This document shows, one piece after another, positions 3,601 through 30,289 of a stretch of 32,000 nt of DNA. The position numbers and the translations under genes were made by a program. Under the pieces are notes generated by a model, which did no database searches, was not told the origin of the DNA, and saw only the letters and a list, made by a program, of their open reading frames with translations. The stretch is from Planctopirus limnophila DSM 3776 (GTDB taxonomy: Bacteria; Planctomycetota; Planctomycetia; Planctomycetales; Planctomycetaceae), in contig NC_014148.1 in assembly GCF_000092105.1 (NCBI RefSeq), positions 2,040,001 through 2,072,000 on the forward strand, read 5' to 3'. Numbering within the stretch: the first letter of the stretch is position 1; every line of letters starts with the position of its first letter.

Positions 3601-3809
3601 TCCACAGGAAACGTAATGAACTGCTCGACCTCGACGGGCCCTAAAGCCGGTGAGACTGTCAGAATCTGTACCTGGACATTGGTCAGATCAGGGACGGCAT
3701 CAAGTGGTAGTCTTGATGCGGAGACAACACCTGCTCCGAACAAAATAATTGCCAGGAGCATGACGATGAAGCGATTTTCCATCGCCCAGGAAATGACATG
3801 GTTGACCAT
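660..3809 (-). CDS. czcA: Heavy-metal efflux RND pump, CusA/CzcA family (1049 aa)
   Basis: The ORF is full length. The N-terminus MVNHVISWAMENRFIVMLLAIILFGAGV...LPLDAVPDLTNVQVQI is typical of HME-RND pumps. The TM4 segment VDFGVIVDGAVVMIENAV carries the DFG-DGA-VEN signature associated with divalent-cation (Zn/Co/Cd/Ni type) HME-RND pumps. The length and the two large periplasmic loops fit the 12-TM RND layout. Confidence 0.95.
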   Translation of the reverse strand: MVNHVISWAMENRFIVMLLAIILFGAGVVSASRLPLDAVPDLTNVQVQILTVSPALGPVEVEQFITFPVENAMSGLPRIQEIRSISRIGLSAVTVAFQDGTDIYWARNLVNERLLQARQNIPPGMGDPQMGPIATGMSEIYQFEVRSKPGFNHSLMDLRTILDWQIAFQLRSIPGVIEVNTFGGELKTYEIQVDPHKLLNYGISLSRVFQALEENNANAGGGYIAHGSEQRLIRGEGLVTSLDDIRRIVLEARSDGTAIRISDIANVQFAPMLRQGAVTRDGNREAVTGMVMMIMGGNSRQVVEDVKEKIHAIEKTLPEGVYIDTFYDRTELVEKTIHTIAENIGVGVLLVVIMLFLLLGDVRAGLIVASAIPLSAMFALIAMSLAGVSANLMSLGAVDFGVIVDGAVVMIENAVRTASRYQQTTGSKRVPKEVFVASAKEVGTPILFAGIIVIIVFLPILSLEGVEGKMFRPMAFTFMSALTGALILAVTVMPVMASLFLARNISSKETFLVRWLKAAYEPMLHFSMARPVLMLSGAVLLFVASVLVSLGFGVEFVPKLDEGDIAIQATRLPSVSLEASIEMTKAMERTLLQFPQVESVISKTGRPEIANDPMGVHQTDVFVRMKPVHEWPEAIEKNTLIEQMQEALEKSVPSNSFSFTQPIELRVQELVAGVRSDIGLSLFGDDLNTLKLEGDKIVRVLSQVPGAADVQAQQVAGLPYLRVIIRRDAISRYGINSSDVLAAISSVGGVPVGEVFEGQKRFPMQVRLAPQWRVDIDQLKELKISDPQGRQIPVSQLADIRLEDGPSEISRDSIRRRLLIQCNVRGRDLGGFVAEAQKIVDQQIKLPPGYALEWGGQFENLQQASARLAVAVPVALFLIFSLLYVTFGSVRLTLLIYLNVPIAATGGIFALWLRGMPFSISAGVGFIALFGIAVMNGVVLIEHIRHLYLHGLDSRTAVVTGAMDRLRPVFMTAICGALGFVPMAVSGSAGAEVQRPLATVVIGGLVTCTALTLLVLPAIYRWFEIPQVTSEEQALPTMSNHNPVAEMHS

Positions 3810-3878
3810 CGAAAGATCCCCGAAGACTGAAGCCCGACTTTTGGCTTGTTGCGCATACTTTCAGATTCGTCGAAAAAA

Positions 3879-5417
3879 CTATTCGCCCAATAGATCAGCC
3901 AGCATCCGTGACTTCAGAGCAAAGCCACCATCAGTCACCACTTTGTCGCCTTCACCCAGGCCGGAGAGAATTTCAACCGAAGTAGTATTTCGACGGCCCG
4001 TTACCACAACGCGACGATCAAACTGATCAGCATCAGCATGAACGAAAACGAAAGTCTTGCCTTCGTAATCCTGCAGAGCAGCTAAAGGGACTTGCAGGAC
4101 TTCAGAAGAGCTGAGATTGGGCAGTTCGATACTCACGAACATGCCGGGCTTGAGAAGTCCTTCAGCGTTATCGGCCATGGCCCGCATTGAAAGAGTCCTG
4201 GTGCTTTCCTGCACGACATCACCCGTGTAGAAGATGGTGGCTTCGAACAATCGGCCTGGCCACGCTTCACTGCGAAGCCGAATCTTTTGATCCTTCAGTT
4301 GGGAGAGCATCGGGAGGTGTGATTCGTAGATATCTGCCGAGACCCACACCGTCGAAAGATCGGCGATCGTGAGAATTTGCCGTTCGGGCCCCACGCGCTC
4401 CATGAGCACGACATCTTTGGAAATCACCGTTCCATCAAAGGGGGCCACGACCGGGTAGTGAGCCAGATTCTCACCCATTTCGGAGGGATCAATCTCTTTC
4501 AGATCATGGTCGGTAAAGCCCAGGATTTTTAAATTCGTCTCGGCCACAGCGATCGTCGTCTGCAACTCTTTGACGGATTGTGTCGACAGCCGGGATGCCT
4601 GGATGACATCCTGCGACGTCTGTTCGAGCAGTGCCTGTAGGATGGCCTTTGTGGCTTTCACGTCGGTTTCGGCATCGAGAAGTTGCTTGGCGGGGACAGC
4701 ACCTGTACCGGAAAGTGGCGCCAGCCTTTGGGTTTGAGATTGAGCCCTGATCGCTGCCAGATAAGCATTCATGAGGGTTTGCCGATGCTCTCCCATGGTT
4801 CGTTCTTTGAGAGCCGTTTCAATATTTTCAATGGCGGCTTCGGAACGAATCATTTCAATGAGCGACAAGGTATTCTGGCTGATTTCCTGGGCCCAGCGAT
4901 CCCGAGCCATGGCAAATTCGAGTTTTAGGCGATCTTGAAAGAGCTGCAGTTTTCCTTGGCCGACTTCTTTACTTTGGACCACTACGAGAAGATCTCCCTG
5001 ACGAACTTTCTGGCCAAATCGCACTCGCACATCATCGACTCGCCCTTCGACGAGTGGAAAGACATGGGCCAGTTTGTCTTCGTTCAGTGAGATTTTCCCC
5101 GTGAGAGTGATGGCTTCATCAAGCGGGCCTTTCTGCACAGATCCAATCGCAATGCCAGCCGCCTTCCACATCTCCTGGGGGAAATCGACCTGTGAGATTT
5201 CTGGAGCTTCTCCAGCAGGCTCAGTGTTCGATTTGTGGGCAGGCAGATCGGTTTTCGCATGAGTCTCAGGCTTTTGTAAGACCCGGTTTCGTAACTCAGG
5301 AGATAGAACGAACGCAGCAATTCCCAGAGCAACGATGAGGACTGCCGTTATCGCCGCTGTTTTTTGTTTGAGCCAGACAGGCGTAGTCATGGAAAACATT
5401 CCCCAATAAAAATTCAC
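3879..5417 (-). CDS. Efflux RND periplasmic adaptor subunit (membrane fusion protein, CzcB/CusB-like, 512 aa)
   Basis: There is an N-terminal TM anchor (AAITAVLIVALGIAAFVL). The lipoyl/barrel motifs are VFPLVEGRVDDVRVRFGQKVRQGDLLVVVQS and VVAPFDGTVISKDVVLMERV, and the C-terminal block is VVVTGRRNTTSVEILSGLGEGDKVVTDGGFALKS. It sits immediately upstream of the pump. Confidence 0.9.
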   Translation of the reverse strand: MNFYWGMFSMTTPVWLKQKTAAITAVLIVALGIAAFVLSPELRNRVLQKPETHAKTDLPAHKSNTEPAGEAPEISQVDFPQEMWKAAGIAIGSVQKGPLDEAITLTGKISLNEDKLAHVFPLVEGRVDDVRVRFGQKVRQGDLLVVVQSKEVGQGKLQLFQDRLKLEFAMARDRWAQEISQNTLSLIEMIRSEAAIENIETALKERTMGEHRQTLMNAYLAAIRAQSQTQRLAPLSGTGAVPAKQLLDAETDVKATKAILQALLEQTSQDVIQASRLSTQSVKELQTTIAVAETNLKILGFTDHDLKEIDPSEMGENLAHYPVVAPFDGTVISKDVVLMERVGPERQILTIADLSTVWVSADIYESHLPMLSQLKDQKIRLRSEAWPGRLFEATIFYTGDVVQESTRTLSMRAMADNAEGLLKPGMFVSIELPNLSSSEVLQVPLAALQDYEGKTFVFVHADADQFDRRVVVTGRRNTTSVEILSGLGEGDKVVTDGGFALKSRMLADLLGE

Positions 5418-7962: not shown

Positions 7963-8403
7963 ATGGCCAAGAATTTGTATGTTGGAAACCTGCCTTACGG
8001 CACGACTGCAGACGATCTGCGAGAAGCATTTTCCGAGCATGGCACGGTAACGCGAGCGCAGGTGGTATCGGATCGCGAAACTGGTCGTTCACGTGGATTT
8101 GGTTTTGTGGAAATGAGCGATGGTGCTGAGCGCGCCGTAGAAGCCATGAATGGTGCAGAATTCCAGGGCCGCACCCTGACTGTGAATGAAGCCCGTCCAC
8201 GCGAAGAGCGGGGTGGTGGTGGCGGTGGTGGTTATGGCGGCGGTGGTGGAGGTGGTTACGGTGGCGGCGGCGGCGGTCGTCCCCGTAGTGGCGGCGGTGG
8301 TGGTTATGGCGGCGGTGGCGGCGGCTACGGCGGCGGTGGTGGAGGTGGTGGTTATGGTGGTGGCGGCGGTGGCTACGGCGGTGGTGGTGGCGGTCGCTAC
8401 TAA
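7963..8403 (+). CDS. RRM-domain RNA-binding protein with a Gly/Tyr-rich C-terminal tail (146 aa)
   Basis: RNP2 is LYVGNL and RNP1 is RGFGFVEM. The product [51 protein letters not shown] has the classic bacterial Rbp layout. The tail is (G5-8Y)n with RPRSG in the middle. Confidence 0.95.
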
Positions 8404-9854: not shown

Positions 9855-9928
9855 GTCCCCGTAGCTCAGCTGGATAGAGCGACGGTTTCCTAAACCGTAG
9901 GTCGCGCGTTCGAATCGCGCCGGGGGCA
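9855..9928 (+). tRNA. tRNA-Arg (anticodon CCT)
   Basis: I folded it by hand. The acceptor stem is GTCCCCG/CGGGGGC. The D arm is GCTC-AGCTGGATA-GAGC. The anticodon arm is ACGGT-TTCCTAA-ACCGT with CCT at positions 34-36. The variable loop is AGGTC. The T arm is GCGCG-TTCGAAT-CGCGC and the discriminator is A. It is 74 nt with no encoded CCA. Confidence 0.93.
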
Positions 9929-17838: not shown

Positions 17839-20800
17839 TTAAATTCCACCCAGCTTCTTCAACAGCTTCAATAGCGTCGGTTTCTTCACCTGATCGGCTG
17901 TCACGAAGCTGAGTTTGATGACTTGTTCGCCATCCGAGTTGGTTTCAATCGCGGGGTCTTCACCCAGGTCGCGGATTTCTCCCAGGGTGATGGGTTTGCT
18001 GCCGGCGGTTCCTGCAGGGGCGAAGAGTTCAAGATCGAGGCTGCCAGTGCGTTTCGTAATGATGTTCGCCAGGACGCGGGGCTTCGCACCGGCTTTGGCG
18101 TCTGCCTTGGCAGGAACCACGCGGTACTTCACCAGCATCTTCTGCGTCCAGTCAACTTCCGCCGCCGGGAAGGTGGTCTCCATCAATTCAAACAGAGCCT
18201 CGGCAACGGCCGGTTCCCAGAGCACTTTCCCCTTCAAAAAACCTTTCCGCATGACGTGCCATTTGCGACCCAGTTTCTTCCAGGGCATCAGGTCTTCGGG
18301 ATTCGACGCCTCGGCTTTTTCGCCCAGCGAAAGATAGCTGGCCAGTGCCTCTTTGAAGAAGCTGGCGAAGGCAGGTGTGGCGACATCATCAGCCTTCGCC
18401 AGAGAGATCGTGACCTCCTGCAAGCCCCCCGCCATAGCCTTCACCCGGACTCGCTCGGCCCGGTTGTAAATGGGGAGTTCATCGAGATCGTCGATATCGA
18501 GAAGATCGAGAGATTCAGCGAGTTCCGTCTGGTCGAACGTCCCCTTCGCCACGCGGAACTTGGCCTGCAGCAGCCATTCATCGCCCGTCAGTGCATGAAT
18601 AAACCAGCTGGGAATCCCTTTCGATTTAGCTTCAATCACACTGCGATCATTCCAGACAACAGTGACGCCTGAATCCTCCTCTAACGGTTCAAAGATCGTT
18701 TCCAGAAGCGAGACAGGCCATTTCGCAGGACGACCCGAATTGGCCAGGTGATCGACCAGATGCCACTTGCGGCCATCGACCTCCCAGGGCATTTTGGCAC
18801 TCTTGCCGAGCGACTTGAGATCAAGATCATCCCGTCGGCGCGCGAGGGCGGCCTTCGCATCAAAGACTTCGCGGGCTCCCTTGCGGCTCGCTTCCAGAAC
18901 CGGGGCGAGACATTGAGCAGTCAACGAGACATGCTGCTGAGGATTTTTCTTCGATGGGTCATCATCTGGAACTTCCCCTTGAGCGATGCGGACGAGATCT
19001 TCAGGAGTTCCCGTCGCCACGATGTAGCCCCCTTCGCTGCCGGCAGCGGGGCCGAGATCAACAATCCAGTCGCAGGTTTTGATCACATCGAGGTTGTGTT
19101 CAATGACGACGACGGTATTCCCCGCATCGACCAGGCTTTGCAGGATCTTGAGCAGCTTGCGGATATCATCAAAATGGAGGCCTGTCGTTGGCTCATCCAG
19201 CAGGTAAAGGGTGCTGCCAGTACTGGGACGGGCGAGTTCAGCCGCGAGCTTGACGCGCTGGGCCTCGCCGCCGGAAAGGGTCGGCGCAGGCTGGCCGAGG
19301 GTCAGATAACCGAGACCAATCGCATCAAGAACTGCCAGCGGCCCGCGAATTTTGGGGAAGCTCTCAAACAACTTGACGGCTTCGGAAATGGGCATCTCAA
19401 GCACATCGGCAATGTTCTTCCCCTGGAACTTGACCGCCAGAGTTTCAGGATTGTAGCGGCGTCCGTGGCAGGTATCGCACTCGACCCAGAGATCGGGGAG
19501 GAAGTGCATTTCAATGAGTTTCTGGCCATTCCCTTCGCAGGTCTCGCAGCGACCACCAGCCCGGTTGAAGCTGAAGCGGGCGGGTCGATATCCGCGCACC
19601 TTTGATTCAGGAAGATGAGCAAACAGCTCACGAATGTGTTCGAAGACGCCTGTATAAGTCGCGGGGTTGGAGGCAGGGGTGTTTCCGAGTGGCTGCTGAT
19701 CGACAACAATCAACTTGCTGAGGTAATCCAGCCCGAGAAGTTCATCGTATGGCCCGGGCTGTTCGCTCGAACGATGCAGTTTGCGGGCAATGGCTTTGCC
19801 GAGAGTGTCGGCGATCAAGGAGCTTTTGCCACTTCCGGACACACCCGTGATGGCTGTCAGTGCCCCCAGAGGAATCCGCAAATCAACATTGCGAAGATTG
19901 TTCTGGCGGGCCCCAATCAACTCCAGCCAGAAGAGAGGCTTGCTTGCAGAAGCCTTGGTTGTGGCTGCCACCTGAGCCTTGGCCTTCCCTTTCGTCGCAG
20001 CACCTGATTTCGCCCGATCAACTGGTGCCTGGCTTCTGCCAAACCTCGCAGGGACACGGCGTTCGGTCGGAACGAGAATATCTTCCTTAAGAGAGAGAAA
20101 TCTGCCCGTGAGCGAGTCGTCGCAGTGTTCGATCTCGTGTGGTGTTCCTTCCGCTGTGACAAGGCCACCCAACCTGCCAGAACCGGGGCCGAAATCGTAC
20201 AATCGATCGGCGGCTGCGAGAACTTCGCGATCATGCTCGACGAGCACCACAGTGTTGCCAAGATCGCGCAGCTTCTTCAGTGCCTGCAGCAGACGCCCGT
20301 TATCGCTGGGATGCAGCCCGATGGTCGGTTCATCGAGAACATACAGCACACCTGTCAACGCCCGGCCCAACTGACCCGCTAATCGAATCCGCTGGCTTTC
20401 TCCGCCGGATAGCGTCGGAAGTGTGCGGCTCAAGGTGAGGTAATGCAGACCGACATCAACCAGAAAATCAAGGCGACCAGCCCCTTCTTCCAGCAGGTCT
20501 CCCGCGATCTTCTGTTGGGTTTTGTTGAGTGTAAGTCCATGCAGAAACTCTTGAGCTTTATTGAGTGGCAATTCGCACAACTGCTGCAAAGTCTTCCCTT
20601 GCAGGCGCACGGCAGAGGCATCTTCTCTCAAGCGGCTGCCACTGCATGAAGAGCAGGGAACTTCACCAATCAAATCGAACAGCGATTGGCGGAATGAGTA
20701 CGAAACGCGTGAGGCTTCTTCGAGAGCCGGGTACAGCCCTTTGAACTGGAAGCGGTATTTGACGGCTTGATCGGCCGTGGATGATTTCTTCGATTTCGCT

Positions 20801-23800
20801 GCTGCTTTGGTGCTCGACTTTTTGGCCGCTGCGGGCTGAGCCACCTGGTAAACCGTGAACCACTGCTCGCCAGCCCCGAAGAGAACCAGTCGCTGCTCAG
20901 CCGGTTCGAGCTGATTAAATGGCGTGTCGAGCGAAAGGCCGACTCCCCGGCTCAGGGCGTCCAACAGTTCGAACATTGCGGGAGATTGCCGAGGGTCTGG
21001 CCAGGCCGAAATGGCTCCTTCGCGTAAAGTTCGTGTGGGATCACCAATGAGAGCCGCAAGGTTCGTGCCCTGCTGAGTGCCCAGACCTTCACAGCTTTCG
21101 CACCATCCCAAGGGACTGTTGAACGAGAAGTTGTGTGGTGCCAATGTCTCAAAACTTCTGCCGCATTGCGAGCAGGCACGAAACAGACTGAAGGGCTGAA
21201 CTTTCCACGAGTTCTCCGGCTTGTCGTCATCGACGAAGGCGACACGAATCACGCCTTTGCCCTGATCAAAGGCTGCCTCGACAGAATCAGCCAGACGGCG
21301 GCGGCTGCCCGAGGCAATCGTGACGCGATCAATGACAATTTCGACGACATGCTTTCGCCGGCGGTCGATTTCGGGAACTTCTTCCAGTCGATAGGTGGTG
21401 CCGTCCACACGTACCCGGCTGAAGCCCTGTTCTTTCAGCCGTTCCCACACTTTGGCGTACTGCTGGCCAACGGGAACTTCCTGCGGTGCCAGAACCAGCA
21501 GTCTGGTGCCTTCCGGCTTGGCCATGAGGAGATCGATCACATCGTCGGTGGTTTGCGATTCCACCGCGATGCGACAGTCGGGGCAATGTTGCGTTCCCAG
21601 GCGGGCATAGAGGACACGCAGATAATCGTAAATTTCCGTCGTGGTGCCGACCGTCGAGCGCGGCGTGTGGCCGACCGTCTTCTGCTCAATCGCAATCGAA
21701 GGCTGAAGACCGTGAATATGCTCGACTTTGGGCTTGGGCATCTGACCAAGAAACTGCCGGGCATACGACGAAAGGGACTCGACGTATCGCCGCTGGCCTT
21801 CCGCGTAGAGCGTATCCATGGCGAGTGACGTTTTGCCGGAACCACTGGGGCCACAGAAGACACTCATCTGATCGCGAGGGATATCGAGACTGATTTTCTG
21901 CAGGTTGTGCTGGGAGGCCCCGCGAATGACGATGTTGGTCTGTGCTTCACGGTCTTGCTGCTTGAGTGGCAAAGCTGCTTGCCAGCGGGAAGGTGAAGCG
22001 ACTTTTGTCTCAGGAGGAAAAGTTCGAGCCACACTTTTTTGTGGCATCTCAACCACGTGATCTGCCGTGCTTTTGCGTCTTTTCTTCGTTCCCTGCCCCT
22101 TGCCAGTGGAGGTGGCTGCGGACCCCAGTGAAACGGGCTGAGATATTGATCGACCGCTCGCCTCAAGGACTCTGGCCAGAAAGCGACCCGTGTATGAGGC
22201 CTCACATTGGGCCACCATTTCTGGTGTCCCCTGTGCGATAATCCTGCCACCACCTTTGCCACCTTCGGGCCCCAGATCGATCACCCAGTCGGCCGTCTTG
22301 ATGACATCAAGATTATGCTCCACGACAATGACGGTATTCCCGGCATCCACAAAGCCATGCAACACCCGCAGCAGGTGGGCGATATCAACGAAGTGCAGGC
22401 CAGTTGTCGGTTCGTCGAGAATGTAGACGGTTTTGCCAGTGCTGCGTTTGCCAAGTTCTTTCGCGAGTTTAATCCGCTGAGCTTCACCACCAGAGAGGGT
22501 AGGAGAGGGCTGCCCCAGCTTGATGTAGTCGAGGCCCACATCGTGCAAAGTCTGCAGCAGATTTTTGATCTTGGGGAGGTTTTCAAAATGTTCAAGTGCC
22601 GTCTGAACATCCATATCGAGGACTTCAGCAATGTTCTTACCCTTGAAACGCACCTCCAGCGTCTCTTTATTAAATCGGCGTCCCTGGCAGACCGGGCAGG
22701 TCACCCAGATATCGGCAAGAAAGTCCATTTCAAGCTTGTTCGAACCATGCCCTTCGCAGGCCTCGCAACGACCGCCAGGGACGTTAAAACTGAAGCGTCC
22801 CGGCTTAAACCCGCGGGTTTTAGAATCGGGAAGTTGTGTGTAAAGATCACGAATCAGGTCGAAGAGTTTGACATAGGTGGTAGGGTTCGACCGGGGTGTA
22901 CGACCAATCGGTGACTGATCAATATCGATGGCCTTATCGACCAATGCGAGATTGTCAAAACTCTGATGAGCACCGGGAGCACCTTCACCAAGATTGACTT
23001 CGCGATTGAGCAGCGGCCACAGAATATCGTTAATCAGCGAGCTCTTCCCTGAACCGGAAACACCGGTCACGCAGATGAACTTCCCCAGTGGAAACTCGAC
23101 ATCGACATTTTGCAGGTTGTGATGCGTGCAACCTTGTATCGAGATGGATGTTCCTATTCCTGAGCGACGTGTTTCGCGGATTTCGATCTGCTTGCGGCCG
23201 GAGAGATAAGCTCCCGTTTCACTTTCTTCATTCGCCAGAAGTGCCTCAAGACTCCCTTCATGAACAACTTTTCCACCACGAACACCGGGGCCGGGGCCAA
23301 AGTCGATAATGTGATCGGCAGCCTTCATCGTTTCATCGTCATGCTCCACCACGATCACGGTATTACCCTGATCGCGAAGATCCTGCAGGCTCCCCAGCAG
23401 CATTTCGTTATCGCGAGGGTGCAGGCCAATCGATGGTTCATCGAGAATATAAACCACACCCACAAGGCCACAGCCAATCTGCCCAGCCAGACGAATCCGC
23501 TGACTTTCTCCACCACTGAGCGTCGGTGCCGTCCGATCCAGCGCGAGGTAATCGAGACCGCAGCGCAAAAGAAAACCCAGGCGGCCACGAATCTCTTTAA
23601 GAACTTCTTCAGCGATATATTGCGAAGTCGGATCCAGATCGAGCTGTTCAAAAAACTCGAAAGCTTCACCCACACTGAGATGGCAAACCCCAGGAAGTGA
23701 CAGACGCTGTTTTTTCGCCTGGGAAGCCGCCGATGAGGAACCGCTGCGTGCTATCGCCGGCGTAGTCATCTCCAATGCTTGGCTGGAGATAAAATAGTTG

Positions 23801-25143
23801 CAGGCCTGAGCGTTGAGTCGCGAACCGTGGCAAGTGCTGCACCCCACGACTTCCATATACTTTTCAAGCTGCCTGCGGCGCATCGGGTTTTTGGCTTTAC
23901 GGTACTCTTCGAGCAGTTCGCGGACATAGCCTGTGTACTTCCCACCATGCTTCCACACTCCGCCCGAGTGCTTGAAACTGTACGTCACATGCTGATTGCC
24001 CAGCCCATCCAGGAAGAGATCGCGCGCCCCCTGGGGCAGTTCATTCCACGGGGTTTTCAGGAACTCACCGGGCTTGAGGCTCAGTGTTTTTTCAATCGCC
24101 GCAGCCACGCCATCAATGAGATGCCTGCGCCAACGGCCCAGCTTGGAAAGTTTACCTGAAAGTGCGAGTGCTCCCTTCTGGATAGAAAGGGATTCATCGG
24201 GAATGAGCCGATCAAGTAAAAAATCGTGCCGCATCCCGAGACCGTTGCAGTCGGCACACATCCCTTGAGGGCTGTTGAAACTGAAAAGTTGCGGCGAGGG
24301 AGGATCGTAACTGATACCGCAATGGGTGCAGGCATAAGCCGTGGCAAAAAACTGTTCGCTCGGATTCTCCTGAGACGGCGAATCGTCTTCACTCTGAATA
24401 GCGGCAGAGAGGAATTCTTCGGGAGAATCCTGCAAAACAATGAGTTGCCCATTCGCCAGTTTGAGCGCATTTTCTACAGCTTCGGCCACACGCTGGCGAG
24501 TCGATTTCCCGGCCACCAGGCGGTCAATCACCACATCAATCGTGTGCTTCATCTGCTTATCAAGCTGCAGACTTTCGCTCAGCGAAATGAATTTGCCATC
24601 AACCCTGGCGCGGAGATAACCCTGCTTGAGAAGATCAACGAAAAGATCCTTAAACTCACCCTTCTGACGCTGAATGAGTGGTGCCAGGATCTGAAACTTT
24701 GTTCCGGCAGGTAAAATGAGAATCTGCTCGACGATGTTCTCAGGAGACTGGGAAGTGATCGGGCGATGGCATTGGTGGCATTCGGCTTGGCCAACCCGGG
24801 CAAACAGCACTCGCAGGTAATCGTATATCTCGGTGATCGTACCCACGGTACTGCGCGGATTTCGACCAGCCGTTTTCTGTTGAATCGAGATCGAAGGAGC
24901 CAGCCCGGTGATCGAATCGACATCCGGCTTGGGCATCGATCCCAGGAATTGCCTCGCGTACGTCGAGAGGGATTCGATGTACCGCCGTTGACCTTCGGCG
25001 TAGAGCGTATCAAAGGCGAGAGAGCTCTTGCCCGAGCCACTGACGCCCGTCATAACAATCAGTTTGTTCTTGGGCAAAACCAGGCTGACGTCACGCAGAT
25101 TATGTTCTCGGGCACCACGAATCGTGATTTCAGATCTGGTCAT
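17839..25143 (-). CDS. uvrA: Tandem UvrA-UvrA fusion protein with extra C-terminal region (2434 aa, four ABC ATPase modules)
   Basis: Unit 1 is residues 1-995 (22159..25143). It begins [16 protein letters not shown]...[36 protein letters not shown]. It carries [12 protein letters not shown] with [11 protein letters not shown], then [27 protein letters not shown] and [11 protein letters not shown]. Unit 2 is residues 1069-2085 (18889..21939). It begins [16 protein letters not shown]...[36 protein letters not shown]. It carries [12 protein letters not shown] with [11 protein letters not shown], then [27 protein letters not shown] and [11 protein letters not shown]. Both units keep the CxxC zinc modules and the segments at the positions of the UvrB-binding and insertion domains. 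The reading frame is uninterrupted. Confidence 0.95.
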
Positions 25144-25851: not shown

Positions 25852-27114
25852 ATGGACTCTGCAGGTACTGCCCGTGATGCGTTATCCGCTGCGATGGTTG
25901 AACGCGTACAGGGATTGCGTCTACCGCCACCCCCTGCCAATGCGGGAATCAACGCTTCCACCTCGATTGCCTGGCTGATTGCCACACTATCGATTTCTGG
26001 TTTCGTGTTTATCTTCCTGTTCGCCTTTGTCTACCAGGTGGGTGGCCCTCGCGGCAGCAATGCCCCAGCCTCGACGACCGTCGCTGGTGATGGGAAGACC
26101 ACAACTGCGGGGTCCAAAAAGGATCCCTCAGCTCCTGCAAACAGTGATGCCCGTCCCGTCGACGCTGCTGCTGTCGATCCGGAAGCGATGGTGCTCTTGT
26201 CACAGGGTTATATCATCCCGGAACAGCAGATTCTGGTCAGCCCGCAGGTGAGTGGCCGGATTATTGAATTGAACGTCAAGGAAGGAACTCGCGTGGAAAA
26301 AGGATTCGTCCTCGCGAAACTGGAACCCACGGAATATCGGGCTGATTATGAAGGAGCCAGAGCCAACGTGGCTGCTGCTGAAGCCAGGCTGGCTGAGTTG
26401 CGTGAAGGAAACCGGCCCGAGGAAATCGCTCAAGCTCAGGCCGAACTGGGCGAAGCCAAAGCGACATTAAAACAGCTGGAACAAACCTTCCGCCGCAATG
26501 CCGAGCTCTACGGACAAAAGATTCTCAACAAGCAGGAGTTTGAAGATTCGGAGTCACTGCTCATGGCCCAGGCCCAGCGCGTGCTCAAGCTGGAAGCGAT
26601 GGTCAAGCTGGCCGAAGATGGCTTCCGTAAAGAGCGGAAACTGGAAGGTGAAGCGAACCTGCATAAAGCGATGGCAGAACTGGAAAGAGCCAAGTGGCGC
26701 CTGGATAACTGCACGATCGCGGCACCAATCTCCGGCACGATTCTGAAGAAAAATGCCGAAGAGGGGAACATTGTGAACCCCGTAGCTTTCAATGGCTCTT
26801 TCAGTTTGTGCGACCTGGCCGATCTTTCGAAGCTCGAAGTCGATCTGACCATTCAGGAACGGGATATTTCGAAGGTTTTCCCGGGCCAGAAATGCAAAGT
26901 CCGTTCGGAAGCTTTTCCCGATCGCGCTTACGACGGTGTGGTCTCACGATTGATGCCCATTGCAGACAGAGCCAAAGGGGCCATTCCTGTTCGTGTGGCG
27001 ATCAGTGTCCCAGCCGATGAAGAGGGCATGTACCTGAAGCCCGAAATGAGTGCCCAGGTGACGTTCTATGCCGGAAAAGCAGAAACAAAACCTGCCACGA
27101 TGAGTGCCGAATAA
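25852..27114 (+). CDS. HlyD/MacA-type periplasmic adaptor (membrane fusion protein, 420 aa) with no transporter partner in the window
   Basis: There is an N-terminal TM anchor (IAWLIATLSISGFVFIFLFAFVY). The lipoyl motif is ILVSPQVSGRIIELNVKEGTRVEKGFVLAKLE. A long coiled coil follows (ANVAAAEARLAELREGNRPEEIAQAQAELGEAKATLKQLE). The remaining blocks are TIAAPISGTILKKNAEEGNIV and the beta-barrel tail. Confidence 0.9.
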   Translation: MDSAGTARDALSAAMVERVQGLRLPPPPANAGINASTSIAWLIATLSISGFVFIFLFAFVYQVGGPRGSNAPASTTVAGDGKTTTAGSKKDPSAPANSDARPVDAAAVDPEAMVLLSQGYIIPEQQILVSPQVSGRIIELNVKEGTRVEKGFVLAKLEPTEYRADYEGARANVAAAEARLAELREGNRPEEIAQAQAELGEAKATLKQLEQTFRRNAELYGQKILNKQEFEDSESLLMAQAQRVLKLEAMVKLAEDGFRKERKLEGEANLHKAMAELERAKWRLDNCTIAAPISGTILKKNAEEGNIVNPVAFNGSFSLCDLADLSKLEVDLTIQERDISKVFPGQKCKVRSEAFPDRAYDGVVSRLMPIADRAKGAIPVRVAISVPADEEGMYLKPEMSAQVTFYAGKAETKPATMSAE

Positions 27115-27127
27115 TTCGCCAGATGGC

Positions 27128-27161
27128 GGGTGACCCCGACCGTCTCGCGGTTGGGTCACCC
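27128..27161 (+). terminator. Stem-loop just after the adaptor gene stop, a possible terminator
   Basis: GGGTGACCC (27128-27136) and GGGTCACCC (27153-27161) form a perfect 9-bp stem with a 16-nt loop. No T-run follows, so any terminator function is uncertain. Confidence 0.3.
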
Positions 27162-27391
27162 GGCGACAAGATGCCACACCCTGCGCGTGCCATGTTCGAA
27201 CACTTCGAATTAAGCAGAGCAATGTTTTGCTGGTAACCTTTGGGCATCAGGGAAAATTGTCCATCGACGATGAACCGTGTTTGATGCAGGTCATCCGGCT
27301 CTCCGGCTGATGGTGCACCTCGGTGAGGATTGACACGCAACGGCATGGGCTGTCGTGAGACTAAACAGCCTCTGGGCCCCTCTCTCCATGT

Positions 27392-27772
27392 TCACTCACC
27401 AACGCACCCTCTTGTGCCGCTGGCAGGCGGGTCGCTCGACGACCACGAGCAATCTGTACCACCCTGCGAAGTTAGGATTGGTGGCTCAGGCGTGCATTCG
27501 ATCGTGGGTTTGACTTGGCAGGTTTGTATTGCTGTTGCGGGGATGCTGATGTTCGCGGACAGGTTTCCTGGCGGTGTGGTCAGGGTTGTTGATCCCAGCG
27601 TAGCGCCGGATTGATCCTTCACCATGACGAGAGTGGGGGTGTCGTCGCTGGAATCACGGTAAACGGTGGCGGTGAGGGTGAGGTTGCCGGTGGCGGGTTT
27701 CAGGAGGGGGACCAGGGGGAAGCTGGCGGAGGGTGTGGCGGGGTTGGGGGTTTCGACAGTTCGTGTGGTCAT
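27392..27772 (-). CDS. Doubtful small T/P/S-rich ORF (126 aa); its 3' end is supplied by repeat copy A
   Basis: The beta-strand-like segment GNLTLTATVYRDSSDDTPTLVMVKDQSGATLGSTTLTTPPGNLSANISIPATAI looks protein-like. However, the whole region is C-rich and purine-poor on this strand, and that bias alone keeps frames open. The same frame is stop-free upstream to 27994 without any start codon. Confidence 0.25.
   Translation of the reverse strand: MTTRTVETPNPATPSASFPLVPLLKPATGNLTLTATVYRDSSDDTPTLVMVKDQSGATLGSTTLTTPPGNLSANISIPATAIQTCQVKPTIECTPEPPILTSQGGTDCSWSSSDPPASGTRGCVGE
27407..27468 (+). repeat. Hairpin repeat, type 1, copy A
   Basis: The sequence is CCCTCTTGTGCCGCTGGCAGGCGGGTCGCTCGACGACCACGAGCAATCTGTACCACCCTGCG. 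It shares its left arm and the GGTCGCTCGA core with copies B and C. It shares the right arm CCACCCTGCG with the type 2 copies. Confidence 0.75.
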
Positions 27773-27968
27773 GGGAGAGGCTTTTCGGGAATGGGGTGGG
27801 GAAAGGAGCGGGAGAGAAGGGGTTGGGGATGGGTTTGGTTCGAGGTGGATGGGGGAGGGAGTTGTGAAGAGCGGAAGGGAAATGGGAGAGGAAAAGAAAC
27901 CGGCCGCCAGGGATGACGGCCGGGGTTGAGGGGGTGGGGATGGAAATGGGTCAGGAAGGAAGTCTGAG
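27773..27968. repeat. Strongly strand-asymmetric low-complexity tract, G-rich on plus and C/T-rich on minus
   Basis: My hand count is about 103 G against about 17 C in 196 nt of the plus strand. Most of the C lies in one hairpin. G-runs are numerous, for example GGGGTTGAGGGGGTGGGGATGGAAATGGG at 27922-27950 and GGGAATGGGGTGGGGAAAGGAGCGGG at 27787-27812. The bias continues to about 27600. Confidence 0.85.
27886..27925 (-). terminator. Rho-independent terminator candidate on the minus strand, inside the C-rich tract
   Basis: On the minus strand CCGGCCG-tcatccctgg-CGGCCGG (27923-27900) is followed by TTTCTTTTCCTCT. It lies downstream of the orphan cassette's small gene. Confidence 0.45.
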
Positions 27969-28044
27969 TCGTTTTGAACTGGGTTCAGGTGGAGTCAGTG
28001 GGTTTCAGCAGGTCGCAGAAGAGACACTCGCTGGCCAACCAATA

Positions 28045-28098
28045 CCTCTTGTGCAGTTGGCATACAGGTCGCTCGAAGACGAGCAAGCTGTGCCACAC
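28045..28098 (+). repeat. Hairpin repeat, type 1, copy B
   Basis: The sequence is CCTCTTGTGCAGTTGGCATACAGGTCGCTCGAAGACGAGCAAGCTGTGCCACAC. It lies 36 nt downstream of the stop of minus-strand gene 28134..28442. Confidence 0.8.
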
Positions 28099-28133
28099 AG
28101 CATGCAAAGCCAAGATTGGGCCAGTCGGTCTGA

Positions 28134-28442
28134 TCAATTCCACACAAAACCACCAAATGCAAATGCCACATCATGAAGTCTAACCCAGTTTCGAATCTCC
28201 CACATGATCGCCTCTGGCTTCTCTTGGGGTTGGCTATCCAGGAACTCTTGAAGCAAGTCACGGATATTGTGGGCAACTTCACTACCGGTAACGCCTTGCA
28301 CCTCGCTTAGCGACTGGGCTAGAGAGGACATGCTTGGCTCTGATTGAATGCGACGTTTGAGCAATAGGTAATACTCAAGCTTCACCCCGTATAGTTCCAT
28401 AACATACTGGTGAATATCCGGCTTTTTGCGTGATCGTTTCAA
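28134..28442 (-). CDS. Small protein following the orphan RHS toxin (102 aa); putative immunity protein
   Basis: It starts at TTG 23 nt after the toxin stop on the same strand, with an alternative ATG at 28400 (MELYG). It has no signal peptide and is acidic. The segment SLAQSLSEVQGVTGSEVAHNIRD is loosely HTH-like. Support comes from position only. Confidence 0.45.
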   Translation of the reverse strand: MKRSRKKPDIHQYVMELYGVKLEYYLLLKRRIQSEPSMSSLAQSLSEVQGVTGSEVAHNIRDLLQEFLDSQPQEKPEAIMWEIRNWVRLHDVAFAFGGFVWN

Positions 28443-28465
28443 CTGTTATCTCCATGATTTGACAG

Positions 28466-30289
28466 TCAGTCAACTCGGTGTATTTCAAGACCTGATGGGT
28501 CTTCAACGTATATTTCGGGCCAGCCTCCCGGTCGTCCAATCGGATTATCTTCCGCTTTCTCAGCGGGCTGGATTCTAAATTTCTTACGAGGAATTTCCGC
28601 AGAAACAGTCCAGTCCGGCGTCGAGTTTCCAGCTGGAATTCCATATCGTTCATTAAAATTTGGAATGGTATCTGGGCGATTGTATGTCCAATAGCTGCCA
28701 TCTGGCTTGTTAAAGCCTGTCGTCCCTGATCGATAACAAGTCAACGATTTTGGGGTTTTGGGAATGCAGCAGGCTGCAATCTTCGGTAGCGTGCTTCGAA
28801 TGTTTCGAACAACTTCCCCAGCGCGTTTGTAGACGCTTTTTCCTATCGCGCTGAAACCACCGACGTCATTGACAGAATCCCTGACCAGATCCTTGGCCAT
28901 CTTGCAGCACTGGCCGTTTCGCTCCAAGCAATCCGAAAAATTATTGCTACTCCAGAGCTCTGACAATTCGGGCTTTAGTTGAGATTCCAAGAATTCCCAC
29001 ATCTTCTTCAACGCCTGGATTTCTCGGAGCCCTGAATAGACATCCCATGCCAGCCAGGCAGCGGCGATTATGTCCCCAATAGGTAGTGGGCCATCTGCTG
29101 CAAGCAAGATGGCTGATCGCGCTCCAGCTTTTAACGCACGTTTTCCAACTAGTGCTGCAATTTTTACTGACAACACTTGGAAAAGCGCCTCCCCGAAGGC
29201 TGCTCCCATATTACACCCGGCCAATCCAAGAGGATCGATCAAAGCCAGTGGGCGCCCGCTAACGTAAGAATAAAGATTGTTGCCTTCATCGAGGATATGT
29301 GGGTCACGAACCAGCCAGCCGATTAGTACGTGAAGCTGTCGGTATCGCACACAATACAAAGAGGTGTTTGTGTCAAAACGGTAGCCTGCATACAGTGTCT
29401 CCCATTCTAGAATATTTCCCGTCAAGCTAAAGGCGTCGTCTAGGAATGTGGCCATTCCGTAAGCGTCGTATTCGTATCTTGCATGAACAACGCCATCTGC
29501 TGCGACGACTACACTCGTATTCCAGTTGTCTTCTTGAAGTGAGTAGTGTCGAACAGCAGGAGGTTCGTCACTAATGATGCTTCGATCGCGTAGGATGAGG
29601 TCGTCCAGATACCTGGCTCCCCACACGAAGTGACTATTCGTACCTTCCAGTACACCTTTTAGTTCTTCAACACACTGCCAGGCATCGGTGAAGTAGGCGT
29701 GGGTGGTTTCATCGAGGGCGCCGGAGTTGTAGTTTTTGACGACGACTCGGAAGTTTCTCGCGTCGTATTGGTATTCGGCGACGGTTTCTAACGTGCTGGA
29801 GACTTCTTCCTCCAGTTTGACCAACCGGTTCCAGGCGTCGTAGGTGGCCGTGTAGGCTTCGTCCATCTGTTTGGGTTTGGGAATCGTGGTCATGTTGCCG
29901 ACGGCGTTGTAGGCCGGGTCGGCCCAGGCGCTGCCCACCGTGTTGGTGATGTCTGTGATTTCATTCACTGGGTTGGCAGTGCGTTCCTGTTCGATACTCC
30001 AGGTGGAGCCGTTATCGCTTTGCTTAAACCCTTCCCAGTTGCCAGTGGGGTCGAGGTTCCAATCCTGCTTGAACGCGGTGGATGCCAGAGCGGTTTGGGT
30101 GCCGTTGAGTGTGCCGCGGTGGGCGGTCTTTAACCGCTGGAGGCCGTCGTAGGTGTAGAGCCAGTCGTATTGGGCACTGTGGGCGGTGGCGATAGGGTTC
30201 TTCCGCCAGATGCGGTTCGAGGCGCGGTCGTAGCCGTACTTGATGCGGTCGAGATCGGTCCCCGCTTTGTGCCAGCGGTTGTCCTTCAC
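28466..30289 (-). CDS. Orphan, 5'-truncated RHS repeat protein fragment: about 356 aa of YD-repeat/RHS core plus a 251-aa C-terminal toxin region
   Basis: The YD repeats are YGYDRASNRI, YTYDGLQRL, ATYDAWNRLV, YQYDARNFRV and YEYDAYGMA. The core end is YAGYRFDTNTSLYCVRYRQLHVLIGWLVRDPHILDEGNNLYSYVSGRPLALIDPLGL, with DPLGL ending at 29222. The frame stays YD-like upstream of the GTG start (FFRLDRFGRVKDNRW) but meets a TAA about 14 codons further up. The usual >1000-aa N-terminal RHS shell is therefore absent. Confidence 0.85.
   Translation of the reverse strand: MKDNRWHKAGTDLDRIKYGYDRASNRIWRKNPIATAHSAQYDWLYTYDGLQRLKTAHRGTLNGTQTALASTAFKQDWNLDPTGNWEGFKQSDNGSTWSIEQERTANPVNEITDITNTVGSAWADPAYNAVGNMTTIPKPKQMDEAYTATYDAWNRLVKLEEEVSSTLETVAEYQYDARNFRVVVKNYNSGALDETTHAYFTDAWQCVEELKGVLEGTNSHFVWGARYLDDLILRDRSIISDEPPAVRHYSLQEDNWNTSVVVAADGVVHARYEYDAYGMATFLDDAFSLTGNILEWETLYAGYRFDTNTSLYCVRYRQLHVLIGWLVRDPHILDEGNNLYSYVSGRPLALIDPLGLAGCNMGAAFGEALFQVLSVKIAALVGKRALKAGARSAILLAADGPLPIGDIIAAAWLAWDVYSGLREIQALKKMWEFLESQLKPELSELWSSNNFSDCLERNGQCCKMAKDLVRDSVNDVGGFSAIGKSVYKRAGEVVRNIRSTLPKIAACCIPKTPKSLTCYRSGTTGFNKPDGSYWTYNRPDTIPNFNERYGIPAGNSTPDWTVSAEIPRKKFRIQPAEKAEDNPIGRPGGWPEIYVEDPSGLEIHRVD

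What the first reader, a model, noticed from the sequence alone, without database searches (positions are those of the whole stretch)
17839..25143. Two complete UvrA proteins fused head-to-tail in one 2434-aa ORF
Canonical UvrA is about 940-1000 aa and acts as a homodimer. Here one uninterrupted frame encodes two full units, residues 1-995 and 1069-2085. Each unit has both Walker A motifs, both LSGGE(S/A)QR signatures, both Walker B motifs (LDEP), the Cys4 zinc modules, and sequence at the positions of the UvrB-binding and insertion domains. All four nucleotide-binding sites look catalytically intact. The units have diverged (GVSGSGKSS versus GPSGSGKTS in the first Walker A, and different insertion domains), so this is not a recent assembly-type duplication. 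The units are joined by an 83-aa or so basic S/T/K-rich linker ([14 protein letters not shown], 21940-22158). Unit 2 carries histone-H1-like Lys/Ala/Ser inserts: [19 protein letters not shown] near 20770-20840 and [18 protein letters not shown] near 19935-20010. A covalent pseudo-dimer would allow the two halves to specialise in damage sensing or UvrB loading. I know of no experimental work on this architecture.
Basis: partly seen in the sequence, partly recalled or inferred. Interest (0 to 1): 0.75.

Follow-up and report, generated by a model that had tools for sequence, protein, structure and literature searches.

The report
Planctomycete double-length UvrA repair protein
This gene really does encode two complete copies of the DNA-damage sensor UvrA joined in one chain, plus an unnoticed extra tail domain, but the fusion is the normal form of UvrA in planctomycete bacteria, has been noted in print, and has not been studied biochemically.

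Summary
Window 17839-25143 (-) is one uninterrupted 2434-aa ORF with two full class I UvrA units. Each unit alone passes NCBI's UvrA equivalog cut-offs. Each has two intact ATPase sites, three Cys4 modules, a UvrB-binding domain and an insertion domain.

It is not an artefact. More than 120 protein clusters at 59-67% identity cover the whole length. At least 516 species-level genome loci of Planctomycetales and Pirellulales carry the same gene. Of the 80 kept, those that reach the whole gene mostly show one uninterrupted frame. All four Walker A and B motifs are invariant in 165 full-length members.

It is not new as a kind. [quoted passage not shown] RefSeq annotates these genes as UvrA. Other double-length UvrAs exist in Burkholderiaceae, and NCBIfam holds a 1809-position model.

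It is a tandem pair of homologous alpha/beta modules with no Pfam, NCBIfam or PDB relative.

The basic linker and the "H1-like" inserts are hypervariable low-complexity loops.

Most likely this is the lineage's housekeeping excision-repair sensor, working as a single-chain pseudo-dimer. That pairing is inferred, not shown.

The parts
17839..25143 (-). Complete ORF (2434 codons plus stop) of the fused double UvrA
   Evidence: There are full-length orthologues at 59-67% identity and one at 99%.
22159..25143 (-). UvrA unit 1 (aa 1-995), class I type. Walker A is GVSGSGKSS at aa 33 and 694.
   Evidence: NF001503 1330.8 bits and TIGR00630 1262.1 bits, both above cut-off. PDB UvrA chains match at E=0. 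Motifs.
24430..24750 (-). Unit 1 UvrB-interaction domain (aa 132-238)
   Evidence: PF17760, 127.2 bits, profile positions 1-107 of 109. It also matches the isolated UvrA interaction-domain chains 3fpn_A and 4dfc_B at about 6e-21.
23860..24213 (-). Unit 1 insertion (DNA-binding) domain (aa 311-428)
   Evidence: PF17755, 51.4 bits, profile positions 3-110 of 110.
21940..22158 (-). Inter-unit linker (aa 996-1068, 73 aa, net charge +8). It contains the basic stretch [14 protein letters not shown] (22069-22110) and a conserved RWQ motif (21970-21990) just before unit 2.
   Evidence: No family hit. Among 118 orthologues the equivalent segment is 17-87 aa (median 41), has net charge 0 to +13, and is 67% S/T/P/A/G/K/Q.
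18889..21939 (-). UvrA unit 2 (aa 1069-2085), class I type. Walker A is GPSGSGKTS at aa 1098 and GVSGSGKSS at aa 1767.
   Evidence: NF001503 1211.7 bits and TIGR00630 1185.6 bits, both above cut-off. PDB UvrA chains match at about 1e-291. GPSGSGK[ST]S marks unit 2 in 163 of 163 family members.
21232..21555 (-). Unit 2 UvrB-interaction domain (aa 1197-1304)
   Evidence: PF17760, 114.2 bits, profile positions 1-108 of 109.
20776..21054 (-). Unit 2 insertion domain (aa 1364-1435; only profile positions 4-74 of 110 are matched), followed by the Lys/Ala/Ser-rich insert [19 protein letters not shown] (aa 1438-1456, 20776-20832)
   Evidence: PF17755, 50.3 bits. Coordinates.
19939..19992 (-). Low-complexity basic insert [18 protein letters not shown] (aa 1718-1735) in the loop between the two ATPase modules of unit 2
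   Evidence: This loop is hypervariable in length and sequence among orthologues. The Walker B-I to Walker A-II spacing is 133-230 aa in unit 2, against a median of 128 in unit 1.
18310..18804 (-). Tail module A (aa 2114-2278), starting with the conserved motif [12 protein letters not shown]
   Evidence: Conserved in the 26-sequence alignment A1. The AlphaFold2 model has pLDDT 88.2. Homologous to module B: hhalign probability 97.6%, E 4e-12.
17842..18309 (-). Tail module B (aa 2279-2434), starting with the conserved motif [18 protein letters not shown]
   Evidence: No Pfam or NCBIfam family, no PDB sequence match, and no Foldseek PDB match at E <= 0.001.

Best explanation
The ORF is the planctomycete form of uvrA. 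It is the damage-sensing subunit of UvrABC nucleotide excision repair, with the two protomers of the usual UvrA2 homodimer encoded in one chain of about 2434 aa.

Shown:
- Both units are complete class I UvrAs, each with its own UvrB-binding domain, insertion domain and three zinc modules.
- All four ATPase sites are under strong purifying selection.
- Unit 1 and unit 2 each form their own clade with matching internal branching. The fusion is therefore single, old and vertically inherited.
- The gene also carries a conserved C-terminal tail made of two homologous alpha/beta modules.

Inferred:
- The two units pair with each other within the chain through the flexible basic linker. This would give a pseudo-heterodimer with one DNA-binding groove.
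- That pseudo-dimer would recruit up to two UvrB molecules and hand the lesion to one of them, as canonical UvrA2 does.
- Because the halves are no longer identical, they are free to diverge in function. Fixed unit-specific substitutions exist.
- The tail is probably a protein-protein interaction or localisation module peculiar to this lineage. It is itself a covalent pseudo-dimer.
For: ORF and motifs.

Class I identity of each unit:
- Each unit passes the UvrA equivalog cut-offs alone.
- PF17760 and PF17755 are present in both units.
- Both units retain about 85-95% of the residues that are invariant in eight class I references, in most UvrA domains (fewer in the poorly conserved insertion domain).
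- Both units match class I PDB chains far better than class II chains (2vf7, 7sh1).

Conservation across the family:
- In 165 full-length members, Walker A and B of all four sites are essentially invariant. Signatures are LSGGE, apart from four members with LSNGE at site 3.
- More than 120 clusters cover 100% of the query at 59-67% identity, with lengths of 2300-2850 aa.
- At least 516 genome loci were found. In most loci that reach the whole gene, a single frame holds four Walker A motifs.

Origin: the unit 1 clade (71% bootstrap) and the unit 2 clade (100%) have congruent topology inside the class I radiation.

[quoted passage not shown] It identified UvrA, UvrB, UvrC and UvrD of Tuwongella immobilis by LC-MS/MS.

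Tail: it is conserved, folds confidently (pLDDT 88.2) and is an internal duplication.
Against: - Intramolecular pairing of the two units was not tested. The structure tool is limited to 1200 aa and returns no coordinates, so no interface could be examined.
- I could not search any whole genome for a second, single-length uvrA or for uvrB and uvrC. 'Housekeeping, sole UvrA' therefore rests on the paper's wording and on the family's ubiquity.
- No uvrB or uvrC is in the window. The neighbours are efflux, ArgJ and methyltransferase genes.
- The shortest orthologous linkers, 17 aa by my strict definition, might be too short for a canonical head-to-head arrangement unless the terminal segments are flexible.
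- The tail has no known relative, so its role is a guess.
Confidence: 0.6

Rival explanations
1. The fused chain does not fold back on itself. Instead, two chains associate (unit 1 with unit 1 and unit 2 with unit 2, or crosswise). This would give a dimer of doubles with eight ATPase sites and two DNA-binding grooves, or an open filament-like assembly.
For: Canonical UvrA dimerises through a symmetric interface, and both units keep nearly all class I invariant residues. Each could therefore still self-pair. Some orthologues have very short linkers (minimum 17 aa). In T. immobilis, UvrA was found only in the SDS-soluble fraction, unlike E. coli UvrA. That would fit larger assemblies.
Against: Nothing direct. 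A flexible basic linker is present in every member. Unit-specific fixed substitutions over a long history are what a fixed unit 1:unit 2 heterodimer would produce. Covalent linkage strongly favours intramolecular pairing through high local concentration (general principle, inference).
Confidence: 0.22
2. Only one half acts as the excision-repair sensor. The other half, most likely unit 2 with the tail, has taken on a different job. It could be a class II-like protein that binds drugs or lesions independently of UvrB, or a regulatory or tethering module.
For: - Unit 2 is the more divergent half (1211.7 against 1330.8 bits on NF001503).
- It carries fixed changes at class I invariant positions. 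These include two in the UvrB-binding domain (E. coli K159 to G and G160 to Q) and variable loss of R695 and R698 in signature domain II.
- Its insertion domain matches only part of the profile and is followed by a low-complexity insert.
- It is contiguous with the novel tail.
Against: - Unit 2 keeps the UvrB-binding domain (114 bits), Zn module 1 and the insertion domain. Class II UvrAs lack the UvrB-binding domain and Zn module 1 (class II definition quoted in PMC9328131).
- It groups with class I, not class II.
- Its two ATPase sites are as invariant as those of unit 1.
- It passes the class I equivalog cut-off on its own.
Confidence: 0.13
3. The long ORF is an artefact. Two adjacent uvrA genes would have been merged by a sequencing or assembly error in the linker.
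For: None found.
Against: - The same uninterrupted architecture appears in more than 120 independent protein clusters. These come from NCBI, JGI, ENA and Logan and include complete chromosomes and cultured Schlesneria.
- Most of the 80 kept genome loci that reach the whole gene show the same single frame.
- Where a locus has a broken frame, the break lies inside a unit, never at the linker.
- An independent assembly (SRR27476755) that is 97.3% identical in DNA carries the same ORF.
- The protein was detected in a related planctomycete.
Confidence: 0.02

Closest known systems
Fused double UvrA of Planctomycetes, as noted in PMC8567305 (Tuwongella immobilis subcellular proteome, Fig. 13) and annotated as 'excinuclease ABC subunit UvrA' in, for example, Schlesneria paludicola (P0037, 2501 aa)
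   Same: Same architecture from end to end: unit 1, basic linker, unit 2, then the two-module tail. Identity to named relatives is 59-67% over 100% of the length. All motifs are shared.
   Different: This is a different, unnamed Planctomycetaceae lineage. The nearest relative apart from a 99% identical Logan contig is 67% identical. The low-complexity inserts and the linker sequence are specific to it. The paper describes only the two-gene fusion, not the tail.
Canonical class I UvrA (E. coli b4058, 940 aa; Geobacillus 2R6F/3UWX; M. tuberculosis 3ZQJ)
   Same: Each unit has the full class I domain set. Each is about 50% identical to class I proteins of other phyla. Each passes the class I equivalog models.
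   Different: Two units sit in one polypeptide instead of forming a homodimer. The units differ from each other (43-48% identity). There is an extra 349-aa tail and there are basic low-complexity loops.
Double-length UvrA on Burkholderiaceae megaplasmids (Ralstonia solanacearum 1945 aa, L083; Mycetohabitans endofungorum 1975 aa, L082)
   Same: One ORF with four Walker A, four signature and four Walker B motifs, annotated as uvrA.
   Different: Independent origin. Its units do not group with the planctomycete units, and its unit 1 falls beside class II sequences. There is no C-terminal tail: only about 100 aa follow the last Walker B. It lies on a secondary replicon. From general knowledge, that suggests an accessory paralogue beside a chromosomal uvrA; I did not check this here.
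NCBIfam NF001885 (PRK00635), a 1809-position 'excinuclease ABC subunit A' equivalog. From memory this is the Chlamydiaceae double-length UvrA; I did not verify that here.
   Same: A curated family of roughly double-length UvrA proteins. The query aligns to it at 1322 bits.
   Different: The score is far below the family cut-off of 3054. Both halves of the query align best to the first half of that model. The query is not a member.
Class II UvrA (D. radiodurans UvrA2 2VF7; Ecm16 7SH1; DrrC)
   Same: Same ABC-ATPase core.
   Different: Class II proteins lack the UvrB-binding domain and the first zinc module (PMC9328131). Both units here have them. Both units score much lower against class II chains than against class I chains.

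Membership tests
Class I UvrA (TIGR00630 / NF001503) | Whole-protein HMM score above the curated equivalog cut-off | tested here: met
   Unit 1 scores 1330.8 and 1262.1 bits and unit 2 scores 1211.7 and 1185.6 bits, against cut-offs of 1147 and 729.8.
Class I UvrA (TIGR00630 / NF001503) | Two ABC ATPase modules per unit, each with Walker A, signature, Walker B and H-loop | tested here: met
   Four of each motif at the expected spacing. They are invariant across 165 family members.
Class I UvrA (TIGR00630 / NF001503) | UvrB-binding domain and first zinc module (absent from class II) | tested here: met
   PF17760 scores 127 and 114 bits. CxxC pairs are at aa 122/272 and 1187/1324.
Class I UvrA (TIGR00630 / NF001503) | Insertion (DNA-binding) domain | tested here: met
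   PF17755 scores 51.4 bits in unit 1 (profile 3-110) and 50.3 bits in unit 2 (profile 4-74 only, followed by a low-complexity insert).
Class I UvrA (TIGR00630 / NF001503) | Single unit of about 940-1000 aa that works as a homodimer | tested here: not met
   Two non-identical units in one 2434-aa chain. The oligomeric state was not testable.
Class I UvrA (TIGR00630 / NF001503) | Damage recognition, UvrB loading and UV resistance | not testable with these tools
   No biochemical or genetic data exist for this protein. There is only proteomic detection of the T. immobilis homologue.
Planctomycete fused double UvrA (PMC8567305; RefSeq 'excinuclease ABC subunit UvrA' of about 2300-2850 aa) | Two uvrA units in one ORF, orthologous over the full length to annotated Planctomycetota proteins | tested here: met
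   120 listed hits at 59-99% identity, nearly all with 100% coverage. They include Schlesneria paludicola and Planctomycetaceae MAGs.
Planctomycete fused double UvrA (PMC8567305; RefSeq 'excinuclease ABC subunit UvrA' of about 2300-2850 aa) | Conserved two-module C-terminal tail with the PW(E/K)xxGRKWH motifs (a feature defined here, not in the literature) | tested here: met
   Present in the query and in all 120 homologues, which have 430-560 aa after the last Walker B apart from one partial sequence. Alignment. At least 516 genome loci.
NF001885 / PRK00635 double-length UvrA | Score at or above the curated cut-off of 3054 bits | tested here: not met
   1322.4 bits.
Class II UvrA (UvrA2 / DrrC / Ecm16) | Absence of the UvrB-binding domain and the first zinc module | tested here: not met
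   Both are present in both units. Neither unit groups with class II in the tree.
Secretion-chaperone-like alpha/beta fold (type III secretion chaperones), considered for the tail | Significant structural match to a solved member | tested here: inconclusive
   The best Foldseek hit is SycH 4gf3_A at E 6.2e-3, with TM 0.39 on the target and 0.17 on the query. Several other secretion chaperones and Arp2/3 p34 follow at E 0.01-0.4. No hit reaches E <= 0.001.

The most novel reading that the evidence does not exclude
The protein may be a natural single-chain UvrA heterodimer whose two halves have become functionally non-equivalent. For example, only one half might load the UvrB that stays on the damaged strand. 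Its C-terminal tandem-module tail, a domain family with no known relatives, might couple the repair sensor to another planctomycete-specific partner or compartment. If so, it would be a ready-made asymmetric UvrA for asking how a symmetric UvrA2B2 complex yields an asymmetric pre-incision complex. PMC11985968 lists that as an open problem.
Probability: 0.3. Interest if true: 0.55.

Novelty: new member of a known kind. Interest (0 to 1): 0.35.

Why it matters
In standard bacterial excision repair, a symmetric UvrA2 dimer binds two UvrB molecules but only one UvrB ends up on the damaged strand. How that symmetry is broken is still debated (PMC11985968).

A lineage that has kept a covalently fused pair of non-identical UvrA units for a very long time offers a natural construct. 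Each of the four ATPase sites and each UvrB-binding domain could be mutated separately, which is awkward with a homodimer.

The conserved, fold-confident and so far unclassified C-terminal tail is a small new domain family attached only to this protein. It is worth a Pfam entry and a pull-down.

As a genome-scan finding, however, the gene is the ordinary, already annotated uvrA of its phylum. It is not a new system.

Tried and rejected
1. Artefact check. I looked for stops or frameshifts at the linker in 80 related genome loci. Broken frames occur only at scattered positions inside units and never at the linker, so they look like sequencing errors. Rejected.

2. Tail identity.
- Pfam and NCBIfam gave nothing.
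- A PDB sequence profile search gave nothing at E <= 10.
- Foldseek against the PDB gave only weak hits to secretion-chaperone-like folds.
- Profile comparison with E. coli YjbR (the neighbour of E. coli uvrA) gave no relation: probability 0.2%.
- Scanning all 26 tail sequences against Pfam at E <= 10 gave a weak HTH_32 hit in 8 of 26 (best E 0.0021). It was absent from the query and was not seen in six members rescanned individually. I treat it as noise.

3. Stand-alone tail proteins. The 1.84-billion representative library gave 621 hits. The ones I inspected start inside UvrA sequence or are contig fragments. None is a convincing independent protein or a fusion to another family.

4. Origin of the duplication. 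The neighbour-joining tree does not resolve whether units 1 and 2 are sisters, because deep nodes have 2-19% bootstrap support. I can only say that the fusion predates the sampled Planctomycetia.

5. Second uvrA, uvrB and uvrC in the same genome. This could not be done.

6. Full-length structure or docking of the tail on unit 2. I did not attempt this. The predictor is limited to 1200 aa and returns neither coordinates nor PAE, so interfaces could not be read.

7. Literature. Searches for tandem-duplicated or 'class III/IV' UvrA found nothing beyond PMC8567305. Goosen & Moolenaar 2008 and Marszalkowska 2013, which classify UvrA homologues, are not in the library.

8. Promoter and terminator scan around the gene. 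Counts were below the shuffle expectation and nothing was usable.


Full report
**Observation.** Window 17839-25143 on the minus strand is one ORF of 2434 codons with an ATG start and no internal stop. Its N-terminus, [16 protein letters not shown], matches the canonical UvrA start. Pattern matching finds these motifs:
- four Walker A motifs, at aa 33, 694, 1098 and 1767;
- four LSGGE signatures, at aa 542, 883, 1578 and 1956;
- four Walker B motifs and four H-loops;
- twelve CxxC pairs, which gives three Cys4 modules per unit.

Scanned separately, aa 1-995 score 1330.8 bits on NF001503 and 1262.1 on TIGR00630. Residues 1069-2085 score 1211.7 and 1185.6. The curated equivalog cut-offs are 1147 and 729.8. 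Pfam finds a UvrB-interaction domain (127 and 114 bits) and an insertion/DNA-binding domain (51 and 50 bits) in each unit. The linker defined by those coordinates is 73 aa, not about 83.

The ORF continues for 349 aa after unit 2 (aa 2086-2434, window 17842-18888).
- This tail has no Pfam or NCBIfam match and no PDB sequence match, even as a 26-sequence profile at E <= 10.
- It is nevertheless conserved. All 120 listed homologues but one partial sequence have 430-560 aa after the last Walker B, where a normal UvrA has about 100.
- The alignment shows two near-invariant motifs, (K)MPWExDGRKWH and (L)TPWKxLGRKWHxxRKGF. It also shows many invariant Trp, Gly and Phe residues.
- AlphaFold2 with that alignment gives a confident model (mean pLDDT 88.2, pTM 0.61). 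It contains two similar helix/four-strand/helix/two-strand/helix modules.
- A profile-profile comparison of module A (aa 2114-2278) with module B (aa 2279-2434) gives 97.6% probability and E 4e-12 over 134 columns. The tail is therefore itself a tandem duplication.
- Foldseek against the PDB finds nothing at E <= 0.001. The best hits are type III secretion chaperones (SycH at E 6e-3, target TM 0.39) and other proteins of that general alpha/beta fold. This is suggestive only.
- A HMMER search of 1.84 billion representative proteins finds only 621 hits. The ones I inspected are this same protein or fragments of it. The domain looks restricted to this UvrA family.

**Is it real?** A search of 5.8 billion clustered proteins returns one 99% identical protein and more than 119 clusters at 59-67% identity. 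Almost all cover 100% of the query and are 2300-2850 aa long. Where named, they are called excinuclease ABC subunit UvrA of Planctomycetota, Planctomycetaceae or Schlesneria, and they include cultured strains and complete chromosomes.

Those kept are labelled Planctomycetaceae, Schlesneria, Planctomicrobium, Thalassoglobus, Pirellulaceae and Lacipirellulaceae.

Most of the 80 kept loci that reach the whole gene have a single frame with four Walker A motifs. The few broken frames are interrupted inside a unit, never at the linker, as expected of sequencing errors. An independent assembly (SRR27476755) that is 97.3% identical in DNA carries the same ORF. The artefact explanation is rejected.

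**Is it known?** Yes, as a kind.
[quoted passage not shown] It reports LC-MS/MS detection of UvrA, B, C and D of Tuwongella immobilis. All were found only in the SDS-soluble fraction, whereas the E. coli proteins were in the Tris-soluble fraction.
- Double-length UvrAs also exist elsewhere. Examples are Ralstonia solanacearum (1945 aa) and Mycetohabitans endofungorum (1975 aa), both on megaplasmids and annotated as uvrA.
- NCBIfam holds a 1809-position equivalog model, NF001885. The query hits it at 1322 bits, far below the cut-off of 3054. The Ralstonia protein does not reach that cut-off either. From memory NF001885 is the chlamydial UvrA; I did not verify this.
- I found no biochemical or genetic study of any fused UvrA. 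The two reviews that classify UvrA homologues are not in the searchable library.

**Relationship of the two units.**
- By BLASTP the units are 43% identical to each other over their full length.
- Unit 1 is 48-52% identical to class I UvrA of Actinomycetota, Bacillota, Pseudomonadota, Bacteroidota and Fusobacteriota. For unit 2 the figure is 45-47%.
- I built a neighbour-joining tree on 904 trimmed columns with eight class I references, three class II references and the Burkholderiaceae doubles. Planctomycete unit 1 sequences form one clade (71% bootstrap) and unit 2 sequences another (100%). The two clades have the same internal groupings, and both lie inside the class I radiation and away from class II.
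- The deep nodes are unresolved (2-19%). I therefore cannot say whether the two units are sisters.
- The Burkholderiaceae units fall elsewhere, so that fusion arose independently.
- The planctomycete fusion is thus single, older than the sampled Planctomycetia, and vertically inherited.

**State of each unit.**
- Of the positions that are invariant in the eight class I references, the query's unit 1 and unit 2 each keep about 85-95% in most domains. In the insertion domain, which has only five such positions, they keep three and four.
- Across 165 full-length family members, the Walker A and B motifs of all four sites are essentially invariant. The signatures are LSGGE, except for four members with LSNGE at site 3. 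Unit 2 is marked by GPSGSGK(S/T)S in 163 of 163 members.
- Unit 2 has fixed differences at class I invariant positions. These include E. coli K159 to G and G160 to Q in the UvrB-binding domain, and variable loss of R695 and R698 in signature domain II. Unit 1 has its own set of differences.
- Neither half is degenerate. Both are under strong constraint, and they are consistently different from each other.

**Linker and inserts.**
- The segment between the units is 17-87 aa among 118 orthologues (median 41). Its net charge is 0 to +13, and it is two-thirds S/T/P/A/G/K/Q. Its only conserved element is an RWQ motif just before unit 2.
- They are best described as basic, probably disordered loops. 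A contribution to non-specific DNA affinity is possible but is only inferred.

**Mechanism.** The most likely reading (confidence about 0.6) is that this is the lineage's excision-repair damage sensor, working as a single-chain pseudo-dimer.
- Shown: the architecture, its conservation, the class I character of both units with two UvrB-binding domains, the intact ATPase sites, and expression of the fused form in a relative.
- Inferred: unit 1 and unit 2 pair within one chain, the complex binds up to two UvrB and hands over the lesion as in canonical UvrA2B2, and the tail mediates a lineage-specific interaction.
- Recent structures indicate that each UvrB contacts the UvrB-binding domain of one protomer and signature domain II of the other. 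They also indicate that the UvrA dimer interface loosens before hand-off (PMC11985968). A flexible tether would still allow such hinge opening.
- Rivals: a dimer of doubles (0.22), functional divergence of unit 2 plus the tail away from repair (0.13), and an artefact (0.02).

**Context.** The neighbours are unrelated housekeeping or transport genes: an RND pump with its adaptor, ArgJ, a lipoate/biotin ligase-family protein, an O-methyltransferase and a second HlyD-type adaptor. No uvrB or uvrC is in the window. No usable promoter or terminator signal was found.

**Verdict.** It is the ordinary, already annotated and already remarked form of uvrA in this phylum, so I class it as a new member of a known kind.

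What remains of interest is the lack of any functional study of a natural single-chain UvrA heterodimer, and the unclassified two-module tail described here. Interest is 0.35.

Noticed in passing
window 17842-18888 (-): The C-terminal 349 aa of the ORF form a conserved domain. It is confidently folded (pLDDT 88) and consists of two homologous alpha/beta modules. It has no Pfam, NCBIfam or PDB relative and seems to occur only at the end of planctomycete double UvrAs.
   Followed up: yes
window 21970-21990 (-): A short RWQ motif just upstream of unit 2 is the only conserved element of an otherwise hypervariable basic linker. It could be an N-terminal extension that packs on unit 2.
   Followed up: partly
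window 17839-17876, compared with L094:9812-12867: A 97.3% identical contig from another sample (SRR27476755) loses homology about 35 nt before the uvrA stop codon. Downstream it carries an RHS/YD-repeat gene, where the window has an O-methyltransferase. This looks like a strain-level rearrangement breakpoint at the 3' end of uvrA. It also changes the last few residues (2440 aa against 2434 aa).
   Followed up: partly
window 28466-30289 (-): A 607-aa ORF with YD-repeat-like sequence, a DPLGLAG motif and a distinct C-terminal region. It looks like the core and toxin end of an Rhs-type polymorphic toxin. It has no Pfam hit at E <= 0.001.
   Followed up: no
window 27115-28465: A stretch of about 1.3 kb with no ORF longer than about 126 aa and a strong GC-skew spike (+0.285 in 27001-28000). 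It may be a degraded gene or a non-coding region.
   Followed up: no
window 8212-8394: An imperfect (GGT/GGC)n array. It has period 3, 9 or 48 and about 180 nt, and would encode a glycine-rich stretch on the + strand. It overlaps a 152-aa ORF on the - strand.
   Followed up: no
window 9855-9928 (+): A tRNA gene (Rfam RF00005, 65 bits), upstream of the ArgJ gene.
   Followed up: no
window 660-5417 (-) and 25852-27114 (+): An RND efflux pump (AcrB family, 1049 aa) with a HlyD-type adaptor. A second HlyD-type adaptor gene is divergently placed directly upstream of uvrA.
   Followed up: no
L083:4986-10823 (+) and L082:2989-8916 (+): The Ralstonia solanacearum and Mycetohabitans endofungorum megaplasmids each carry an independently evolved double-length uvrA (1945 and 1975 aa, four ATPase sites, no tail). 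Its first unit groups near class II UvrA.
   Followed up: partly
L047, L049, L051 (genome-contig hits): Loci with the planctomycete double UvrA tail come from MAGs labelled Deltaproteobacteria and Candidatus Kuenenia. Either the MAGs are mislabelled or contaminated by binning, or the gene ranges more widely.
   Followed up: no
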